Of a stretch of DNA of 64,000 bases, positions 56,119 to 60,208 are shown in pieces. The number at the start of each line of letters is the position of its first letter. The first letter of the stretch is position 1. The notes below the pieces were generated by a model, which saw nothing but the letters and a program-made list of their open reading frames with translations, ran no database searches and was not told the DNA's origin. Both the position numbers and the translations under genes were made by a program. Source of the stretch: Candidatus Omnitrophota bacterium (GTDB taxonomy: Bacteria; Omnitrophota; Gorgyraeia; Aquiviventales; Aquiviventaceae). The stretch is from the NCBI GenBank assembly GCA_016209275.1, contig JACQWM010000007.1, forward strand, positions 6,865 through 70,864, in the 5' to 3' direction.

Positions 56119-56796
56119 ATGCGGTGGAAGACAACGCTTGCGCTCTTGGTGGCAACGGTCGTGGTGGGGGCGTATGTCGCTTACGATATCCGCCAGCCGT
56201 CCAAGGAATGGCAGGAAGAGCGTCCTCGGCAGATCCTGGATCTGCCCGCTGAAACCATCACGCAGCTGGCGATTGAAACACCCCAGGTCAAGATCGCCCT
56301 CATCAAAGACGGCGGCTCATGGGTCATCGCGCCGCAGCATCTGCGCGCCAACGCGAATCTCATCACGCGCATCGTCTATCTCTTCGGGCCGCTGATGGCC
56401 TCTCGCGTCCTGGCCCCAACGCCTGAGCATCCGCTGGATTTGGCCGCGATGGGATTGGCTCCTGCGGTCGGCCGGATCACCGTCTCGGCCAACGGCCTCG
56501 CGAGCACCCTGCAGTTCGGCAATCCGACTCCGCTCCCATCGAAACGGTACGCGAAGGTCGCCGGCCGCCCTGAGGTGTTTGTGATTCCCGCACGCCTCTT
56601 TGACCTGGTCAATCAGCCGCTGGAGCGCTACCGCGACTCGCCATCAGCCGCGCCGGCGAATGAGGCCCCGGGCGCGGAGGATGCGTTGCAGGACGGTCAG
56701 ATGCGTCAGCCCCGCCAAGAGTACCAGGGCCCACCAGAGCCCATCGTGACCGAACGGACGCCACGGCAAGAGCTCCCACGCCAACAGCCCAAGTAA
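56119..56796 (+). CDS. DUF4340-like protein (usual 4th gene of gldAFG-like clusters)
   Basis: ATG at 56119 (MRWKTTLALLVATVVVGAY) verified. Single N-terminal TM. The C-terminal ~50 aa are low-complexity and overlap the convergent gene. Confidence 0.5.
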   Translation: MRWKTTLALLVATVVVGAYVAYDIRQPSKEWQEERPRQILDLPAETITQLAIETPQVKIALIKDGGSWVIAPQHLRANANLITRIVYLFGPLMASRVLAPTPEHPLDLAAMGLAPAVGRITVSANGLASTLQFGNPTPLPSKRYAKVAGRPEVFVIPARLFDLVNQPLERYRDSPSAAPANEAPGAEDALQDGQMRQPRQEYQGPPEPIVTERTPRQELPRQQPK

Positions 56797-57255
56797 GAGC
56801 ACGATCCCCCGCTCGCTGCGCTCCATCAGATCCGGCCATTCCAGGTTGCTCATCGGCGCTTCCATCGCGGCTCGGGCTTTTGAATAGCTGACCAGCAGCG
56901 ATCCGGATACGCTGAGCATCGACCACAGCCAATAGCCGCTGGCGATGGCAATGGTGACGCTGATGATCACGTCCACGTAGCGATCCACCATGGCGTCGAG
57001 GTAGCCGCCGAAGCGGCTGGCCCGCCCGCTGAGGCGCGCCACCGCCCCATCCACCCAGTCGAGGCAGGCGACGGCCGTGATCATCACGCAAAACGGGAGA
57101 ATCGCCCGCGTGCGGAGAAACCACCAGCACACGATCAGGCTCAGCAGTGGTGTCGCAAGGGTGAGGGCATTGGGCGAAATGCCGGTGGCAGCGAGCGCGC
57201 GCGCCAGCGGCTCAATGGCGCGATTGAAGAACGATTTATACCGGCTCGTCAACAC
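56644..57255 (-). CDS. CDP-alcohol phosphatidyltransferase family protein
   Basis: DG..AR..G..S..G...D...D motif (DWVDGAVARLSGRASRFGGYLDAMVDR) and multiple TM helices. Confidence 0.75.
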   Translation of the reverse strand: MLTSRYKSFFNRAIEPLARALAATGISPNALTLATPLLSLIVCWWFLRTRAILPFCVMITAVACLDWVDGAVARLSGRASRFGGYLDAMVDRYVDVIISVTIAIASGYWLWSMLSVSGSLLVSYSKARAAMEAPMSNLEWPDLMERSERGIVLLLGLLAWELLPWRPFGHDGLWWALVLLAGLTHLTVLQRILRARGLIRRRG

Positions 57256-57258
57256 GGG

Positions 57259-57801
57259 TCAGGCAGCGGGTGGGGGTGCGGGCTCGATACCGACGATCTT
57301 GATCTTAAAATTCAACGTCTTGCCTGACAGCGGATGATTCCCATCCAAGATGACGGTGGTTTTCTTGATCTGTTTGACGGTGGCTCGGATGCTGCGGCCC
57401 TGCTCATCAGCATAGCGGAAGACGAGCCCGGGTTTCGGTTGGAGTCCAACCGGAAGATCGCGCTTCTCCACTTCCATCACCAGCGACGGATTATATTGGC
57501 CGTAGCCCTGCTCCGGCGAAATGGTCACCTCTTTCTCATCGCCGGCATGCAAACCGGCCAGCGCTCGCTCAAGCGCTGCGATGATCTGGCCGCGGCCGTG
57601 GACGTATTGCAGCGGCCCTTGGCCGCTCGTGGACTCCACGGTTTTCCCATCCGCCGTCAGCGTGTAGTCCAGGGTCACACTCATCCCGTCTTCAACGCTG
57701 AAGGAAGACGGCGCGTCTTGCTCCGCGGCCATTGCGCCGGCGGCCAGCAGCCCGGCCAGCCCGATGGCGGTAACACTCGCGAAACCTCGGCGGGGCATCA
57801 T
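57259..57801 (-). CDS. secreted FKBP-type peptidyl-prolyl cis-trans isomerase
   Basis: Signal peptide and FKBP domain (VTLDYTLTADGKTVESTSGQGPLQYVHGRGQIIAALE..., …GKTLNFKIKIVGI). Confidence 0.8.
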   Translation of the reverse strand: MMPRRGFASVTAIGLAGLLAAGAMAAEQDAPSSFSVEDGMSVTLDYTLTADGKTVESTSGQGPLQYVHGRGQIIAALERALAGLHAGDEKEVTISPEQGYGQYNPSLVMEVEKRDLPVGLQPKPGLVFRYADEQGRSIRATVKQIKKTTVILDGNHPLSGKTLNFKIKIVGIEPAPPPAA

Positions 57802-57804
57802 GGG

Positions 57805-58227
57805 TTAGGAGCTCGCCGCAAAGTCCGAATCGTCCAGCAATTCCAAGTCGTCGATCCACTCCTCGCCCGAAGCGCTGTCGGATGACTCATCAATCTGCTC
57901 ATCGAGCTCATTCAGTAATTGCATGGTTTGCTCAAGCCACGTCGCGTCATCATCTTGGCGCTCGGCCAGCACCATGGGTGTGGCCGCCGGCCCAGCCGCA
58001 TGATGCCGGAGCGCGCCGAAGGCGAGGACGAGGCTTGCCGCCGCGGCCGCGAACGCCACCGCCACCCTCGGCCAGGGCCAGGCCGCCCGCGCCGGGACCG
58101 GCACGGGATGGGCAAGGCGTCGAACGCGCGCCATCACCTCATCGGTGTAGCGGATCCGCTCATATCCGTCGGGCTCCTTCAGCGGATGGCGCTTGAGCCA
58201 CGCCGCCAGCCACGAAGCGAACTCCAT
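57805..58227 (-). CDS. putative membrane-anchored anti-sigma factor
   Basis: Immediately downstream of, and abutting, the ECF sigma gene. Short cytoplasmic N-terminus, one TM (VAVAFAAAAASLVLAFGAL) and an acidic C-terminus. No detectable family motif, so the call rests on position. Confidence 0.4.
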   Translation of the reverse strand: MEFASWLAAWLKRHPLKEPDGYERIRYTDEVMARVRRLAHPVPVPARAAWPWPRVAVAFAAAAASLVLAFGALRHHAAGPAATPMVLAERQDDDATWLEQTMQLLNELDEQIDESSDSASGEEWIDDLELLDDSDFAASS

Positions 58228-58821
58228 TTACAGTCCCTCCTCATTCAGCCACGGGGTCAGCTGCTTGCGCAGCGACGCGGCAGCCCGAAAGATGTGCGCC
58301 TTGACCGTTCCGACGCGACAATCCATCACGCCGGCAACCTCCATCAGTGGTAACCCCTGCAGATGATGCAGCGCAAACGCGGTTTTCTGTTTCATGGGCA
58401 GCCTCCCAATCGCCTGGGCGAGCCGGCGCCCCAATTCGCGATTCGCGGCGCGGTCGCTGGGATCGGCTGCAGGATCCCCCACGTCGATGAACCACGAGCT
58501 GTCAGGATCATCAGGATCAGCTTCACCCACGACGGCGGCCGCCGCCGGAGCGCGCATGCGCCGGCGAACCTCATCCTTGCACTCGTTAACCACGATGCGG
58601 TAGAGCCATGTGGAGAACTTGGCGTTCCCGCGGAATCGGCGAAGCGAACGGTAGGCGTTGACAAAGGCTTCTTGCGAGGCGTCTTTCGCATCCTCATGAT
58701 GGCCGAGCAGGCTAAGTGCCAAGCGAAACGCGGGGCCCTGGTAGCGATCCACCAGCTCGGCATACCGATCCACCTCTCCGCGCAGGACAGCGGTGATAAT
58801 CTCCGCATCGGATTGGCCCAT
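58228..58821 (-). CDS. ECF-type RNA polymerase sigma-70 family factor
   Basis: Region 2 (…YRLALSLLGHHEDAKDASQEAFVNAYRSLRRF…) and region 4 HTH (…LPMKQKTAFALHHLQGLPLMEVAGVMDCRVGTVKAHIFRA…). Confidence 0.85.
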   Translation of the reverse strand: MGQSDAEIITAVLRGEVDRYAELVDRYQGPAFRLALSLLGHHEDAKDASQEAFVNAYRSLRRFRGNAKFSTWLYRIVVNECKDEVRRRMRAPAAAAVVGEADPDDPDSSWFIDVGDPAADPSDRAANRELGRRLAQAIGRLPMKQKTAFALHHLQGLPLMEVAGVMDCRVGTVKAHIFRAAASLRKQLTPWLNEEGL

Positions 58822-58848: not shown

Positions 58849-60111
58849 TCACCGACGCCGTCCGCCGCCACCGCCGCCACCTTTAGCCCCGCCACCGGCA
58901 CCGCCACGGGGCCCACTACCGCCGGCCTTCGAGCCGCCACCCATGGCTCCCCCGCGAGACCCACCGCCTGCTGGACCGCCACCCATGCGCTGTCCAGGCC
59001 CGCCGCCTGGTCCGCCCTGCGGGCGATTCGCCCCGCCATGCTCTCCAGGACCAAATCGGCGATGCTCGCCGCCCTGGCCGACACCACCGCGTCCCTCTCC
59101 TTGGCCATGATCGCGCACACCCCGATCATGTCCCGGGCCTGGCCCGCCCTGTTCACGCTTGCGCTCTCGGTGATCTTCACGCCGGTCACGGACATCCTCC
59201 CGATGGTCGCGGACATCCTCCCGTCGGTCATGCCGATCTTCGCGGCGATCCTTCACGTCTTCTCGATGATCGCGCACGTCCTCCCGGCGGTCGCGAATAT
59301 CCTCACGCCGATCCTTGATATCCTCGAGCCGATCCCGCGGTCCGCCGTCATGCCTGGCATCCCACCGATCTTCGCGGCGATCGCGGATGTCCTCTCGATG
59401 ATCCTTGACGTCTTCTCGGCGATCCCGCACATCCTCGCGGCGATCGCGGATATCTTCGCGCCAATCCTGGCGATCCTCTCGCCGATCCTGGCGATCCTCT
59501 CGGCGGTCTTGACGGGCTTCCATGCGATCGGCGAAGTGCTCCTGGATGCGCGGATGATTCTGCATAAACTGCTCGAATCGCCCCGGGTTATGCTCCTTCA
59601 TGTATTGCAGCCGGTGCTGCATCACTTCGCGGAATTTCTCAGGGTTGGCCTCCTTCAGATGCTGGAGGCGCTCGCGGCGCTGCGCTTGGAGCTTGTCCTT
59701 GACGCGCTCAAACGCCTCAGGATTCTTCTGCTTTAACTGCTCCAGACGTTCCTTCAGTTGTCCGCGATGCTGCTGGATAGCTTCTTTGTAGGCTTCAGGA
59801 TTCTTTTCCTTGAGTTCGCGCAAGTGTTGGAGCTTGGCAGGATCAGGACCCGGACGATCTTTGATATCTTCGCGCCGATCCCGCACGTCTTCTCGGTGGT
59901 CACGGACATCTTCCCGGCGATCGCGGATATCCTCGCGCCGATCCTTCACATCTTCTCGCCGGTCCTTCACATCTTCTCGGCGATCCTGGCGGTTCTCCCG
60001 ACGATCGGCGCGGTTTTCAACGCGATCTTTGCTAGGCGGTTCGGCGAATGCCTGCGCGGAGCAACCCAAGAGTCCTGCCACGACAATGCCCAGCAGCCGT
60101 CTCTTCATCAT
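58849..60111 (-). CDS. secreted (probable lipo)protein of tandem DRRED(V/I)(K/R) heptad repeats, helical NPE-motif repeats and a Gly-rich tail
   Basis: Signal peptide MMKRRLLGIVVAGLLGCSAQAFA. About 6 + 19 heptads of D-R-R-E-D-(V/I/R)-(K/R/Q) with His substitutions (DHREDV). A central triplicated KNPEAF.E...L.E motif. A 100-aa Gly/Pro/Arg-rich C-terminus. Encoded by 21-bp tandem DNA repeats. Confidence 0.65.
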   Translation of the reverse strand: MMKRRLLGIVVAGLLGCSAQAFAEPPSKDRVENRADRRENRQDRREDVKDRREDVKDRREDIRDRREDVRDHREDVRDRREDIKDRPGPDPAKLQHLRELKEKNPEAYKEAIQQHRGQLKERLEQLKQKNPEAFERVKDKLQAQRRERLQHLKEANPEKFREVMQHRLQYMKEHNPGRFEQFMQNHPRIQEHFADRMEARQDRREDRQDRREDRQDWREDIRDRREDVRDRREDVKDHREDIRDRREDRWDARHDGGPRDRLEDIKDRREDIRDRREDVRDHREDVKDRREDRHDRREDVRDHREDVRDRREDHRERKREQGGPGPGHDRGVRDHGQGEGRGGVGQGGEHRRFGPGEHGGANRPQGGPGGGPGQRMGGGPAGGGSRGGAMGGGSKAGGSGPRGGAGGGAKGGGGGGGRRR

Positions 60112-60163
60112 GGTGCCCTCCTTGTTCTATTGAGTAAGACGCCGGACGGGCGAAAAGGTTTAC

Positions 60164-60200
60164 CCCGCCCCACGGTTATTATTGTGGGCGGGGTTTACTG
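60164..60200 (-). terminator. GC-rich hairpin (CCCCGCCCC-loop-GGGCGGGG) followed on the minus strand by TTTTC; candidate intrinsic terminator downstream of the sir2/ccsA unit
   Basis: The sequence ccccgccccacggttattattgtgggcgggg forms a ~10-bp G/C stem. On the minus strand it is followed by cctTTTCg. Confidence 0.35.
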
Positions 60201-60208
60201 AGGAAGGA

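What the first reader, a model, noticed from the sequence alone, without database searches (positions are those of the whole stretch)
58849..60111. Secreted protein of about 25 charged DRRED(V/I)(K/R) heptads, a ZraP/Spy-like helical repeat core and a Gly-rich tail, wired to an ECF sigma/anti-sigma pair
The gene directly upstream of an ECF sigma (58228..58821) and its putative anti-sigma (57805..58227) encodes a signal-peptide/lipobox protein (LLGC). Its mature part is almost entirely repeats.
- Six N-terminal and about nineteen central heptads D-R-R-E-D-(V/I)-(K/R), with recurrent His (DHREDV).
- Between them, three copies of a ~25-aa helical unit (KNPEAYKEAI..., KNPEAFERVK..., ANPEKFREVM..., HNPGRFEQFM).
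- A ~100-aa Gly/Pro/Arg-rich C-terminus.
A periplasmic helical-repeat protein with a Gly-rich tail under an envelope-stress-type sigma recalls the CpxP/Spy/ZraP chaperones (ZraP ends in a Gly/His-rich tail). That parallel is my inference. The alternating Asp/Arg/Glu heptads could also form a single-alpha-helix (ER/K-like) spacer or a metal/polyanion-binding array. I know of no described family with this DRREDVK heptad.
The coding DNA is a 21-bp tandem array (59130-59530 and 59860-60010), so copy number is probably unstable.
Upstream of the ATG (60111), the minus strand reads GTAAACC-N16-CGTCT (plus-strand 60157-60163 / 60136-60140), an ECF-like -35 AAC / -10 CGT arrangement. This suggests autoregulation by the adjacent sigma.
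Basis: partly seen in the sequence, partly recalled or inferred. Interest (0 to 1): 0.78.

Follow-up and report, generated by a model that had tools for sequence, protein, structure and literature searches.

The report
Secreted charged-repeat protein in sigma-factor operon
This is a real gene for a secreted, all-helical, highly charged protein made of three previously undescribed modules; it is the first gene of a self-regulated stress-response (ECF sigma factor) operon in a Candidatus Omnitrophota bacterium, and it is not a member of the Spy/CpxP/ZraP chaperone family.

Summary
It combines three modules that recur independently in hundreds of unnamed secreted proteins.

- **NPExF core:** a basic helical-repeat core.
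- **DRRED hairpin:** D-R-R-E-D-V/I-R heptads on both sides of a conserved W-D-A-x-H-D-G-G turn. Arm lengths are equal in 72% of 109 relatives, against 17% by permutation, so this is an antiparallel helical hairpin, not a single helix.
- **Gly-rich tail:** it carries the motif GVRDHGxGxGxGxGQGGxHR.

TAAACCTTT-N11-13-CGTCTAAT lies upstream of family genes in about 13 loci. Core-bearing relatives, even those without heptads, are usually followed by an ECF sigma and a single-pass protein with an acidic outer tail.

Several readings fail:
- Spy/CpxP/ZraP membership (HMM, profile-profile and fold searches all negative).
- Lipoprotein status (the Cys is not conserved; the signal peptidase I site is).
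- Unstable copy number (DNA units are only 68% identical).

The function is inferred: a periplasmic partner or feedback regulator of the anti-sigma, and/or a stress effector. The families are undescribed, so this is moderately interesting.

The parts
60162..60194 (-). G+C-rich hairpin (11-bp stem, 10-nt loop) after the upstream NIR_SIR gene. It is terminator-like; its 3' end abuts the -35 element.
   Evidence: RNA fold gives -23 kcal/mol, z = -2.7. The consensus terminator scan did not call it, because the loop exceeds 8 nt and the T-run is short.
60137..60163 (-). ECF-type promoter GTAAACCTTTT-N11-CGTCT (AAC-N16-CGT)
   Evidence: It is the single match in the window, with 0.01 expected. The same motif, TAAACCTTT-N11-13-(G)CGTCTAAT, lies upstream of family genes in L002, L006, L007, L027, L033, L050, L052, L059, L084 and L090, with variants in L012, L088 and L091.
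60117..60123 (-). Ribosome-binding site AAGGAGG, 5 nt before the ATG
   Evidence: Read directly from the sequence.
58849..60111 (-). CDS of the 420-aa secreted repeat protein
   Evidence: There are 97 homologues and 503 clusters at 50% identity.
60043..60111 (-). Signal peptide, aa 1-23, with a signal peptidase I site AFA|EPP
   Evidence: The cleavage-site pattern is conserved across homologues, while the Cys17 of LLGC is not.
59857..60027 (-). N-terminal heptad array, aa 29-85 (8 units). It is a single arm with no turn.
   Evidence: AF2 predicts a helix at aa 52-82 with pLDDT 55-60.
59512..59853 (-). NPExF helical-repeat core, aa 87-200 (4 units, net charge +6). This is the module linked to the ECF operon.
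   Evidence: AF2 pLDDT is 83-92. The profile search hits centre on this region. Core-only relatives are also followed by an ECF sigma. Cores are net basic in 98% of 115 relatives.
59167..59508 (-). DRRED heptad hairpin, aa 202-315, with 7 + 8 units
   Evidence: AF2 predicts helices 186-252 and 258-319 with pLDDT above 90. Arm symmetry holds in 78 of 109 relatives.
59335..59364 (-). Hairpin turn W-D-A-R-H-D-G-G-P-R, aa 250-259
   Evidence: Turn logo: D 100%, H 87%, GG 100%.
58852..59151 (-). Disordered Gly/Arg/Pro-rich tail, aa 321-420, ending in RRR
   Evidence: Composition; pLDDT below 45.
59059..59121 (-). Conserved linear motif GVRDHGQGEGRGGVGQGGEHR, aa 331-351
   Evidence: The motif is present in 32 of about 235 collected relatives, combined with the core, the hairpin or both.
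58228..58821 (-). ECF sigma factor (197 aa), 27 nt downstream of the repeat gene
   Evidence: Pfam Sigma70_r2 and Sigma70_r4_2; NCBIfam sigma70-ECF at 93 bits.
57805..58227 (-). Putative anti-sigma: N-in, a single TM segment (aa 55-73) and an acidic periplasmic tail (2 K/R against 19 D/E)
   Evidence: It follows the sigma with zero gap. Topology and the conserved tail motifs recur in 14 loci. A clear homologue is present in L090. There is no Pfam hit.
57259..57801 (-). FKBP-type peptidyl-prolyl isomerase with an N-terminal signal-like segment; probably in the same operon
   Evidence: Pfam FKBP_C at 5e-13. It is separated from the anti-sigma gene by a 3-nt gap.
56644..57255 (-). CDP-alcohol phosphatidyltransferase, on the same strand after a 3-nt gap; possibly the last gene of the operon
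   Evidence: Pfam CDP-OH_P_transf at 5e-12.

Best explanation
The gene is the first cistron of an autoregulated ECF sigma operon in a Candidatus Omnitrophota genome. The order is: ECF-type promoter, repeat protein, ECF sigma, single-pass anti-sigma, periplasmic FKBP isomerase, and possibly a CDP-alcohol phosphatidyltransferase.

The product is exported by a Sec / signal peptidase I signal and is a soluble periplasmic, all-helical protein built from three independently mobile, undescribed modules:
1. A net-basic NPExF helical-repeat core. This is the module that travels with ECF sigma/anti-sigma pairs.
2. A DRRED heptad array that folds as an antiparallel helical hairpin around a conserved W-D-A-x-H-D-G-G turn.
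3. A disordered Gly-rich tail carrying the motif GVRDHGxGxGxGxGQGGxHR and ending in a basic C-terminus.

Inferred mechanism: the sigma transcribes the operon from TAAACCTTT-N-CGTCTAA. The secreted protein accumulates in the periplasm. There its basic core binds the short, strongly acidic, amphipathic periplasmic tail of the anti-sigma. That would stabilise or shield the tail, giving negative feedback in the manner of CpxP on CpxA or RseB on RseA, until an envelope signal titrates the protein away. The hairpin and tail would act as accessory ligand-binding or effector parts.

What is shown by sequence and comparison: the gene, export signal, helical architecture, hairpin, operon and conserved promoter. 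What is inferred: sigma dependence, the core-tail interaction and the feedback.
For: - **Real gene and family.** There are 97 homologues and 503 clusters at 50% identity, all unnamed or 'hypothetical'.
- **Organism.** Candidatus Omnitrophota MAG.
- **Operon.** The gaps are 27, 0, 3 and 3 nt.
- **Synteny.** Family gene, then ECF sigma, then a small TM protein, in WIN, L002, L007, L012, L027, L033, L050, L052 and L059. The same order holds for the heptad-less core proteins in L090 and L091.
- **Promoter.** The strict pattern AAACCTT-N11-15-CGTCT has 11 hits in 738 kb searched on both strands. All are on the family-gene strand, 12-230 nt upstream of a family gene. There is one hit in the window, with 0.01 expected. 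No sigma-70-like promoter was found upstream on that strand.
- **Hairpin.** AF2 predicts two helices of 62-67 aa with pLDDT above 90, broken at HDGGP. Arms are equal in 71.6% of 109 hairpins, against a permutation mean of 17% and a maximum of 31% in 5000 permutations, with arms ranging from 2 to 10 heptads.
- **Charge complementarity.** Cores are net positive in 98% of 115 relatives, mean +11. The periplasmic tails of the anti-sigma candidates carry 0-6 K/R against 10-32 D/E and share the motifs LxxLxELxE and E-h-x-L-L-D-x-h-E-h. This holds across three different cytoplasmic domain types.
- **Envelope-folding theme.** A periplasmic FKBP lies in the same operon.
Against: - There are no expression, localisation or binding data.
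- The sigma's ECF group could not be assigned.
- The 140-aa protein matches no anti-sigma domain model above threshold.
- About a quarter to a third of core-bearing relatives examined are not next to a sigma (L004, L030, L087, L088, L089), although L088 keeps a variant of the promoter.
- The hairpin module is mostly found without any ECF gene, for example in small Bacteroidota proteins, so it must have a function independent of sigma signalling.
- The hairpin region is nearly charge-neutral, so a charge-based interaction applies only to the core and tail.
- The AF2 model's inter-helix contacts could not be inspected, and pTM is only 0.33.
Confidence: 0.45

Rival explanations
1. The protein is only an output (effector) of the regulon, not a regulator. 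It would be a hyper-hydrophilic periplasmic protectant or ion buffer. The acidic D1/E4/D5 stripe of the hairpin and the His/Asp/Glu motif in the tail would bind Ca2+, Mg2+ or metal cations (or the Arg faces would bind polyanions). This would work like LEA-type shield proteins or cation-buffering proteins.
For: - The hairpin occurs without any ECF gene in at least 181 species-level genomes from many phyla, often as 100-150-aa secreted proteins that are little more than one hairpin.
- About 13 of 97 homologues carry EF-hand Ca2+-binding domains. L008 fuses EF-hands to the hairpin, and L024 encodes an EF-hand protein next to it.
- His is conserved in the turn (87%) and in the GVRDHG...GGEHR motif.
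- One relative lies next to groES-groEL.
Against: - This does not explain why the NPExF core is so consistently the first gene of sigma/anti-sigma operons even when heptads are absent.
- It does not explain why the anti-sigma tails are uniformly acidic.
- No metal-binding family or motif was detected.
- Being an effector and being a feedback regulator are not mutually exclusive; CpxP is both.
Confidence: 0.3
2. The protein is a structural periplasmic spacer, tentacle or scaffold. The length-tunable hairpin, about 9-10 nm in this protein, would set a distance or form oligomeric bundles by pairing the basic face of one helix with the acidic face of the next.
For: - Arm length varies from 2 to 10 heptads yet stays symmetric.
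- Only one hydrophobic position per heptad, with segregated basic (R2, R3, R7) and acidic (D1, E4, D5) faces (helical-wheel inference).
- Tandem double hairpins exist in L012, L061, L073, L077 and L085.
Against: - There is no membrane or cell-wall anchor: the lipobox Cys is not conserved and no peptidoglycan- or outer-membrane-binding domain was found.
- Oligomerisation was not tested.
- A structural ruler is not expected under an inducible ECF promoter.
Confidence: 0.12
3. The protein is a highly divergent member of the Spy/CpxP/ZraP (LTXXQ / Metal_resist) chaperone superfamily.
For: It is periplasmic and helical, has a Gly/His-containing tail reminiscent of ZraP, and appears to be induced by its own envelope pathway.
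Against: - There is no LTXXQ or Metal_resist hit at E <= 0.1-1 for the whole protein or for the core alone, while the Spy and ZraP controls hit at 2e-23 and 5e-23.
- hhalign gives probability 0.6%.
- The PDB profile search finds no Spy, CpxP, ZraP or CnrX.
- The protein has no Thr, hence no LTxxQ motif.
Confidence: 0.04
4. The ORF is an assembly artefact or a non-coding repeat, with a spurious ORF created by a GC-rich 21-bp array.
For: Long ORFs also appear on the opposite strand across the repeats.
Against: - The identical protein is encoded on a separate Logan assembly contig.
- The repeat units are distinguishable at DNA level: 68% identity, longest exact repeat 18 nt.
- There are hundreds of homologues with the same module order, signal peptides, ribosome-binding sites and promoters.
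Confidence: 0.01

Closest known systems
CpxP / Spy / ZraP (Pfam LTXXQ PF07813, Metal_resist PF13801)
   Same: They are small secreted all-helical periplasmic proteins built from helical hairpins and are strongly induced by the envelope-stress pathway they belong to. CpxP feeds back on its sensor through a basic surface that faces an acidic sensor domain (established knowledge). ZraP has a Gly/His-rich C-terminus.
   Different: No sequence, profile or fold similarity was found, and there is no LTxxQ motif. The partner here is an ECF anti-sigma rather than a histidine kinase. The architecture is also different: NPExF repeats, a DRRED hairpin and a GVRDHG motif.
CnrX of CnrYXH, and RseB of RpoE-RseABC (periplasmic accessory proteins of ECF sigma/anti-sigma pairs)
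   Same: They are periplasmic proteins co-transcribed with an ECF sigma and its membrane anti-sigma. They act on the periplasmic part of the anti-sigma (established knowledge). cnrYXH, like this operon, places accessory genes before the sigma.
   Different: There is no homology. The anti-sigma here has only a short acidic tail of 40-100 aa instead of a folded sensor-binding domain. The interaction is inferred, not shown.
DUF3106 (PF11304)
   Same: It is a secreted helical-repeat protein of unknown function encoded next to ECF sigma/anti-sigma pairs. In the gammaproteobacterial loci L008, L024 and L064 a DUF3106 protein sits in the same cluster as a DRRED-hairpin protein. One homologue (P0094) fuses DUF3106 to heptads.
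   Different: The NPExF core does not match the DUF3106 model at E <= 1, and the repeat motif is different (W..LsPEER against LKExNPExF).
Single alpha-helix (ER/K) domains and canonical coiled coils
   Same: They are highly charged 7-residue-periodic helices with many i/i+3 and i/i+4 salt-bridge options.
   Different: Here a conserved Gly-Gly turn splits the array into two arms of equal length, and V/I is conserved at one heptad position. The structure is therefore neither a lone SAH nor an a/d-type coiled coil. The acidic residues are mainly Asp, not Glu.
Skp / prefoldin helical-hairpin 'tentacles'; Neisseria Ag473 heptad-repeat lipoprotein
   Same: They are, respectively, long antiparallel helical hairpins in periplasmic chaperones and tandem heptad repeats of variable number in a secreted bacterial protein. 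There is a weak sub-threshold NCBIfam hit to lipo_Ag473.
   Different: There is no body domain and no homology. The Ag473 hit is 16 bits against a cutoff of 100.

Membership tests
Spy/CpxP/ZraP superfamily | Match to the Pfam LTXXQ (PF07813) or Metal_resist (PF13801) model | tested here: not met
   There is no hit at E <= 0.1 for the whole protein or at E <= 1 for the core alone. The positive controls Spy and ZraP hit at 2e-23 and 5e-23. hhalign of A1 against Spy/CpxP/ZraP gives probability 0.6%.
Spy/CpxP/ZraP superfamily | Two LTxxQ motifs | tested here: not met
   The protein contains no threonine at all (composition).
Spy/CpxP/ZraP superfamily | Bent four-helix hairpin (cradle) fold | tested here: not met
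Spy/CpxP/ZraP superfamily | Periplasmic location and induction by its own envelope-stress pathway | tested here: inconclusive
   The signal peptide with a conserved signal peptidase I site and the conserved ECF-type promoter are consistent with this. No expression or localisation data exist.
Spy/CpxP/ZraP superfamily | ATP-independent chaperone activity, or Zn binding for ZraP | not testable with these tools
   This needs biochemistry.
Autoregulated ECF sigma / anti-sigma operon | Sigma factor with only sigma-2 and sigma-4 regions | tested here: met
   Sigma70_r2 at 3e-19 and Sigma70_r4_2 at 6e-12, 197 aa. TIGR02937 sigma70-ECF scores 93 bits against a cutoff of 43.
Autoregulated ECF sigma / anti-sigma operon | Co-transcribed membrane anti-sigma directly downstream | tested here: inconclusive
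   The gap is zero, and the topology is N-in, one TM segment and an outer tail. The equivalent genes in L052, L072 and L091 carry zf-HC2. The window protein itself matches no anti-sigma model above cutoff.
Autoregulated ECF sigma / anti-sigma operon | Promoter of the AAC (-35) / CGT (-10) type upstream of the operon | tested here: met
   The site is at 60137-60163 (-) and is unique in the window. It is conserved as TAAACCTTT-N11-13-CGTCTAAT in about 13 loci.
Autoregulated ECF sigma / anti-sigma operon | Transcription from that promoter depends on the cognate sigma | not testable with these tools
   This needs a reporter assay, in-vitro transcription or RNA-seq.
Autoregulated ECF sigma / anti-sigma operon | Assignment to a defined ECF group (ECF Hub classification) | not tested
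   The group HMMs are not available here. The main text of PMC7826278 holds no matching context.
Single alpha-helix (ER/K) domain | One uninterrupted charged helix with no hydrophobic seam and no turn | tested here: not met
   An invariant GG turn with symmetric arms; AF2 shows a break at aa 253-257; V/I occupies heptad position 6 in 55-66% of units.
Bacterial lipoprotein | A lipobox with an invariant Cys conserved among orthologues | tested here: not met
   LLGC is present in the window, but the aligned residue is A, V, M, I or S in homologues. The downstream xFA|(E/Q)PP site is conserved. SignalP and LipoP are not available.
Slippage-prone tandem repeat (contingency locus) | Near-identical DNA units | tested here: not met
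   The 21 units average 68% identity, the maximum is 90%, none are identical, and the longest exact repeat is 18 nt. TRF reports 69-84% matches.

The most novel reading that the evidence does not exclude
Two undescribed protein modules are defined here.

1. The DRRED hairpin is a widespread bacterial secreted domain: a length-tunable antiparallel helical hairpin held together mainly by charge pairing, with only one hydrophobic residue per heptad. Its two arms are kept equal through expansion and contraction.

2. The NPExF core is a new class of periplasmic co-regulator. It would control a family of ECF sigma factors by binding the short acidic tail of their anti-sigma factors, which would amount to a previously unrecognised ECF signalling architecture in Omnitrophota, Planctomycetota and related phyla.
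Probability: 0.3. Interest if true: 0.7.

Novelty: new variant of a known kind. Interest (0 to 1): 0.56.

Why it matters
ECF sigma factors are the largest group of alternative sigma factors, and for most groups the input mechanism is unknown. This locus defines a coherent, testable unit:
- a sharply conserved promoter (TAAACCTTT-N-CGTCTAAT);
- a sigma factor;
- an anti-sigma whose only periplasmic part is a short acidic tail;
- a co-transcribed, net-basic secreted partner.

It occurs in poorly studied, mostly uncultured phyla (Omnitrophota, Planctomycetota). The same analysis uncovers a compact, highly regular charged hairpin domain. That domain is present in at least 181 species-level genomes across many phyla and is absent from Pfam, NCBIfam, the PDB and the searchable literature. 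Its strict arm symmetry makes it an attractive model for charge-driven helix pairing and for protein design. The promoter and sigma pair could also serve as an orthogonal expression switch.

Tried and rejected
- **Family libraries.** Pfam and NCBIfam scans of the whole protein, the core alone and four relatives gave only sub-threshold coiled-coil-type noise: Rad50, SMC, ApoLp-III, XPC-binding, S15, YtxH, Ag473.
- **Solved structures, by sequence.** A PDB profile search gave as best hit a designed helical protein at E = 0.003 and ribosomal protein S15. Both are judged compositional.
- **Spy/CpxP/ZraP.** hhalign against these three was negative.
- **Genome scan.** The search for related loci with the full-length alignment A1 failed for lack of a conserved 7-10-column stretch. 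It was redone with the hairpin alignment A2.
- **Literature.** Searches for DRREDV, DUF3106 + ECF, Omnitrophota + ECF sigma, DUF3619, and 'extracytoplasmic function' + Omnitrophica returned nothing relevant. The ECF reclassification paper has no matching context in its main text.
- **Database look-ups.** Exact look-ups of Emticicia hairpin proteins, and of the window protein starting at Met2, were not in the collection.
- **Lipoprotein reading.** Rejected, because the Cys is not conserved.
- **Contingency-locus reading.** Rejected, because the DNA units are diverged.
- **Arginine-rich hairpin binding the acidic tail.** I considered this and dropped it, because the hairpin is nearly charge-neutral (net -4). 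The net-basic parts are the core (+6) and the tail (+9).
Full report
**1. The observation**

The minus-strand ORF 58849..60111 encodes 420 aa. A Shine-Dalgarno sequence, AAGGAGG, lies 5 nt before the ATG. Parsing the protein gives these segments:
- A signal peptide, aa 1-23 (MMKRRLLGIVVAGLLGCSAQAFA|EPP).
- An N-terminal run of 8 heptads, aa 29-85 (6 strict, 2 degenerate).
- A helical segment, aa 87-200, with four NP-x-x-[FY] units at aa 104, 130, 156 and 175.
- A second heptad region of 7 units (aa 202-250) and 8 units (aa 260-315), separated by W-D-A-R-H-D-G-G-P-R.
- A 100-aa tail that is 49% Gly, 12% Arg and 8% Pro and ends in RRR.

Fourteen units match D[RH]RED[VI][KR] strictly and 21-22 match loosely. 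TRF finds period-21 arrays at 59183-59295, 59359-59505 and 59863-59986.

- An ECF sigma (58228..58821; Sigma70_r2 and r4_2).
- A 140-aa protein (57805..58227) that starts immediately after the sigma stop codon.

Two further genes follow at 3-nt gaps:
- An FKBP isomerase with an N-terminal signal-like segment (57259..57801).
- A CDP-alcohol phosphatidyltransferase (56644..57255).

Exact-sequence look-ups of the neighbouring proteins identify the source as a Candidatus Omnitrophota MAG (MBI4597094-102, contig 78.5 kb).

**2. It is a real gene and a real family, made of three modules**

A homologue search returned 97 proteins, all unnamed or 'hypothetical'. A full HMMER scan with a family profile found 503 clusters at 50% identity (250 at E <= 1e-10). 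Reading the sequences shows three modules that combine freely:
- (a) The NPExF core: 3-5 repeats of roughly L-K-E-x-N-P-E-x-F-x-x-h-x-x-R-+-x-x-h-x-E-R-L-x-x. This is what most profile hits match. Of about 235 collected proteins, 102 have the core and no heptads.
- (b) The heptad array (73 proteins have heptads and no core).
- (c) A 21-aa motif, G-V-R-D-[HY]-G-x-G-x-G-x-G-x-G-Q-G-G-x-[HN]-R, set in a Gly-rich tail with a basic C-terminus. It occurs in 32 proteins, together with the core, the heptads or both, and occasionally also at the N-terminus (P0001, P0106).

The window protein is one of only three proteins in this set (counting itself) that carry all three modules, and it has one of the highest heptad counts seen, 21 by the loose pattern.

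No module matches any Pfam, NCBIfam or PDB entry above threshold. Full-text searches for the motif or the context found nothing.

**3. The heptads form a symmetric helical hairpin**

AlphaFold2 with a 10-sequence alignment predicts:
- helices 186-252 and 258-319 at pLDDT above 90, broken at H-D-G-G-P;
- a helical core (pLDDT 85-92);
- a weaker N-terminal helix (aa 52-82);
- a disordered tail.

A scan of one genome per species, using the mid-array region as query, found at least 181 genomes. They include Omnitrophota, Planctomycetota, Chitinophagaceae and Emticicia (cultured), Gammaproteobacteria, Bdellovibrio-like bacteria, Gemmatimonadota, Elusimicrobia, Nitrospirae, Micavibrio and Vampirovibrionales.

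I examined 109 hairpins from these loci and from the protein hits. The turn is nearly invariant: [RW]-D-A-x-H(87%)-[DNE]-G(100%)-G(100%)-x-x-D-[KR]-h-E-D. The heptad logo is D1 (99%), R/K2, R/K3, E4 (99%), D/N5, V/I/R6, R7.

The decisive observation is arm symmetry. The number of heptads before and after the turn is identical in 78 of 109 cases (71.6%), with arms ranging from 2 to 10 units. Permuting the arms gives 17% on average and never more than 31% in 5000 trials. Two arms that must stay equal are what an antiparallel hairpin requires. This argues against the single-alpha-helix reading.

On a helical wheel (my inference from the logo), R2, V6, R3 and R7 form one face and E4, D1 and D5 the other. 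Each helix is therefore a transverse charge dipole with a single hydrophobic seam, which is not an a/d coiled coil.

The N-terminal 8-unit array of the window protein has no turn of its own. Its length matches the hairpin arms, so it could pack onto them. That is speculation.

**4. The DNA array is not slippage-prone and not an artefact**

The 21 DNA units average 68% pairwise identity. None are identical, and the longest exact repeat in the gene is 18 nt. The units are therefore old and maintained at the protein level. Heptad number varies widely between relatives but should be stable within a lineage.

A Logan assembly contig (SRR12113383) encodes the identical 420-aa protein. It may derive from the same sample, so I do not count it as fully independent.

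The long ORFs on the opposite strand are shadows of the repeat.

**5. Export: secreted, probably not a lipoprotein**

LLGC fits a loose lipobox. In the alignment, however, the Cys position is A, V, M, I or S in homologues, whereas the downstream x-F/W-A|(E/Q)-P-P signal peptidase I site is conserved. SignalP and LipoP were not available.

**6. The link to the ECF sigma is real and belongs to the NPExF core**

The order 'family gene, ECF sigma, small TM protein' occurs in the window and in L002, L007, L012, L027, L033, L050, L052 and L059. Two heptad-less core proteins picked at random, P0129 (L090) and P0120 (L091), show the same order.

The hairpin is a different matter:
- Hairpin-only proteins (Bacteroidota) are not sigma-linked in the loci examined.
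- The same holds for the Omnitrophota class with an N-terminal WKQE...SGDFE domain.
- Some hairpin proteins without the core are sigma-linked (L008, L024, L064, L072, L083).
- Five core-bearing relatives are not sigma-linked (L004, L030, L087, L088, L089).

**7. The promoter**

It is the only such site in 64 kb, where 0.01 is expected.

Aligning the upstream regions shows a striking conserved element, (T/G)TAAACCTTT-N11-13-(G)CGTCTAAT(A/T)GGGT:
- It is present in WIN, L002, L007, L027, L033, L050, L052, L059, L084 and L090.
- It is present in L006, a hairpin gene that is not next to a sigma.
- Variants occur in L012 (AGTCTAA), L088 (CAACTTT...CGTCTAA) and L091 (TGTCTAA).

The strict pattern AAACCTT-N11-15-CGTCT occurs 11 times in 738 kb of loci searched on both strands. 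Every occurrence is on the coding strand, 12-230 nt upstream of a family gene. From base probabilities, under one hit would be expected anywhere (my estimate).

The gammaproteobacterial loci carry a different pair, GTCAACC-N16-CGTTA. That fits their more distant sigma (E about 1e-10 to 1e-15, against 1e-32 to 1e-45).

No sigma-70-type promoter is found on that strand. A G+C-rich hairpin at 60162-60194 (-23 kcal/mol) directly upstream probably terminates the NIR_SIR gene. The operon is thus very likely driven by its own sigma. This is strong comparative evidence, not an expression measurement.

**8. The putative anti-sigma**

The proteins downstream of the sigma in 14 loci share one topology:
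- a cytoplasmic N-terminus that carries the protein's few K/R residues;
- one TM segment;
- a short periplasmic tail of 42-99 aa that is extremely acidic. The window protein has 2 K/R against 19 D/E; others range from 0-6 K/R against 10-32 D/E.

The tails share two amphipathic motifs: L-x-x-h-x-h-L-x-E-L-x-E and a C-terminal E-h-x-L-L-D-x-h-E-h.

Their cytoplasmic parts are of three kinds:
- a short W..WL.RHPL type (window, L090);
- a zf-HC2 type (L052, L072, L083, L091);
- a gammaproteobacterial type that sits next to DUF3106.

The acidic tail is therefore the feature that co-occurs with the family protein.

Conversely, the NPExF core is net positive in 98% of 115 relatives, with a mean of +11 over about 115 aa; the window core is +6. 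The hairpin itself is about neutral (net -4) and the Gly tail is +9.

**9. Mechanism**

Shown: the gene, the export signal, the helical modular architecture, the hairpin, the operon and the conserved ECF-type promoter.

Inferred, at roughly 0.3-0.45: the secreted protein binds the acidic tail of the anti-sigma through its basic core. This would provide feedback or signal sensing, in the logic of CpxP-CpxA, RseB-RseA or CnrX-CnrY. The hairpin and the tail would serve as ligand-binding or effector parts.

The co-transcribed periplasmic FKBP and a relative located beside groES-groEL fit an envelope or protein-folding stress theme.

The main rival, at about 0.3, is a pure effector role as a hydrophilic shield or a cation or polyanion buffer. 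Support for it comes from the ECF-independent distribution of the hairpin and its frequent fusion or adjacency to EF-hand Ca2+-binding domains. The two roles are not exclusive.

**10. Comparison with known families**

Spy/CpxP/ZraP membership was tested and failed at every level:
- HMM: no hit, while Spy and ZraP controls score 2e-23 and 5e-23 in the same library.
- Profile-profile: probability 0.6%.
- PDB sequence profile.
- Motif: the protein has no Thr, so it has no LTxxQ.

The resemblance is one of logic only. The locus does meet the testable criteria of an autoregulated ECF sigma/anti-sigma operon. The ECF group could not be assigned here.

**11. Verdict**

The locus is a new variant of a known kind of system, an ECF sigma/anti-sigma operon with a periplasmic accessory protein. 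Its accessory protein is made of three undescribed modules, one of which (the symmetric DRRED hairpin) is widespread and structurally unusual. Interest is moderate, about 0.56.

Noticed in passing
window 57808-58008 (-), aa 74-140 of the 140-aa protein; also L007, L012, L027, L050, L052, L059, L072, L083, L008, L024, L064, L090: The periplasmic tails of the putative anti-sigma factors are short and extremely acidic. They share the motifs LxxLxELxE and E-h-x-L-L-D-x-h-E-h, even though their cytoplasmic domains are of three different types.
   Followed up: partly
window 57259-57801 (-): An FKBP-type peptidyl-prolyl isomerase with an N-terminal signal-like hydrophobic segment lies 3 nt after the anti-sigma gene, apparently in the same operon. 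Only one other fetched locus (L037) has an FKBP nearby.
   Followed up: partly
window 60162-60194 (-): A G+C-rich hairpin (-23 kcal/mol) lies downstream of the NIR_SIR gene. Its last paired base is the T of the GTAAACC -35 element, and the short T-run after it is also the conserved TTT of the promoter motif. Terminator and promoter therefore overlap.
   Followed up: partly
P0027, P0040, P0048, P0051, P0053, P0061, P0062, P0071, P0073, P0077, P0079, P0080, P0089; L008 4761-5468; L045 4245-5333; L024 5495-6007: DRRED hairpins are often fused to, or encoded beside, EF-hand Ca2+-binding domains. This hints at a divalent-cation connection.
   Followed up: partly
L006 5896-5932 (upstream of P0004, start 6001): A hairpin protein of the non-core (WKQE...SGDFE) type, not adjacent to any sigma gene, still carries the exact TAAACCTTT-N-CGTCTAAT promoter. 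The regulon may therefore include unlinked hairpin genes.
   Followed up: partly
L052 4110-4340: In this locus the conserved promoter sits about 230 nt upstream of the family gene. The leader contains a perfect 15-bp inverted repeat (CCCAGCACTAATTTT...AAAATTAGTGCTGGG). L091 also has a leader of about 170 nt.
   Followed up: no
L008 4761-7257, L024 4824-7899, L064 4641-7743: Gammaproteobacterial clusters have the order: hairpin protein, (EF-hand protein), ECF sigma, small acidic-tail TM protein, small acidic protein, DUF3106 protein. Their promoter motif is different (GTCAACC-N16-CGTTA).
   Followed up: partly
L012, L046, L061, L073, L077, L085, P0015, P0019, P0033, P0055: Some proteins carry two complete hairpins in tandem. 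In most of them each hairpin has equal arms (not in L077, P0019 or the first hairpin of L085).
   Followed up: partly
P0001 aa 34-54 and 234-254; P0106 aa 34-54: The GVRDHGxGxGxGxGQGGxHR motif can occur right after the signal peptide as well as at the C-terminus. It therefore behaves as an independent short linear motif, and its function is unknown.
   Followed up: no
L087 1030-4742: One core + hairpin relative (P0031) is not sigma-linked. It lies just upstream of a pantothenate kinase gene and groES-groEL, and no AAACC/CGTC motif is seen upstream of it.
   Followed up: no
L061 about 4361 (-) and L076 about 1460 (-): In two Elusimicrobia loci the ECF sigma is transcribed divergently from the hairpin gene. 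An AAACCCCGGG-N-GCGTCT motif lies on the sigma side of the intergenic region.
   Followed up: no
window 58849-60111: Neither the 420-aa product nor its Met2 variant is in the protein collection under an NCBI accession, although all neighbouring gene products are (MBI4597094-102). The deposited annotation may use another start or may have missed the gene.
   Followed up: partly
window 59038-59736 (+), 59758-60201 (+), 59810-60133 (+): Long ORFs on the opposite strand across the repeat region are shadows of the GC-rich periodic coding sequence, not genes.
   Followed up: partly
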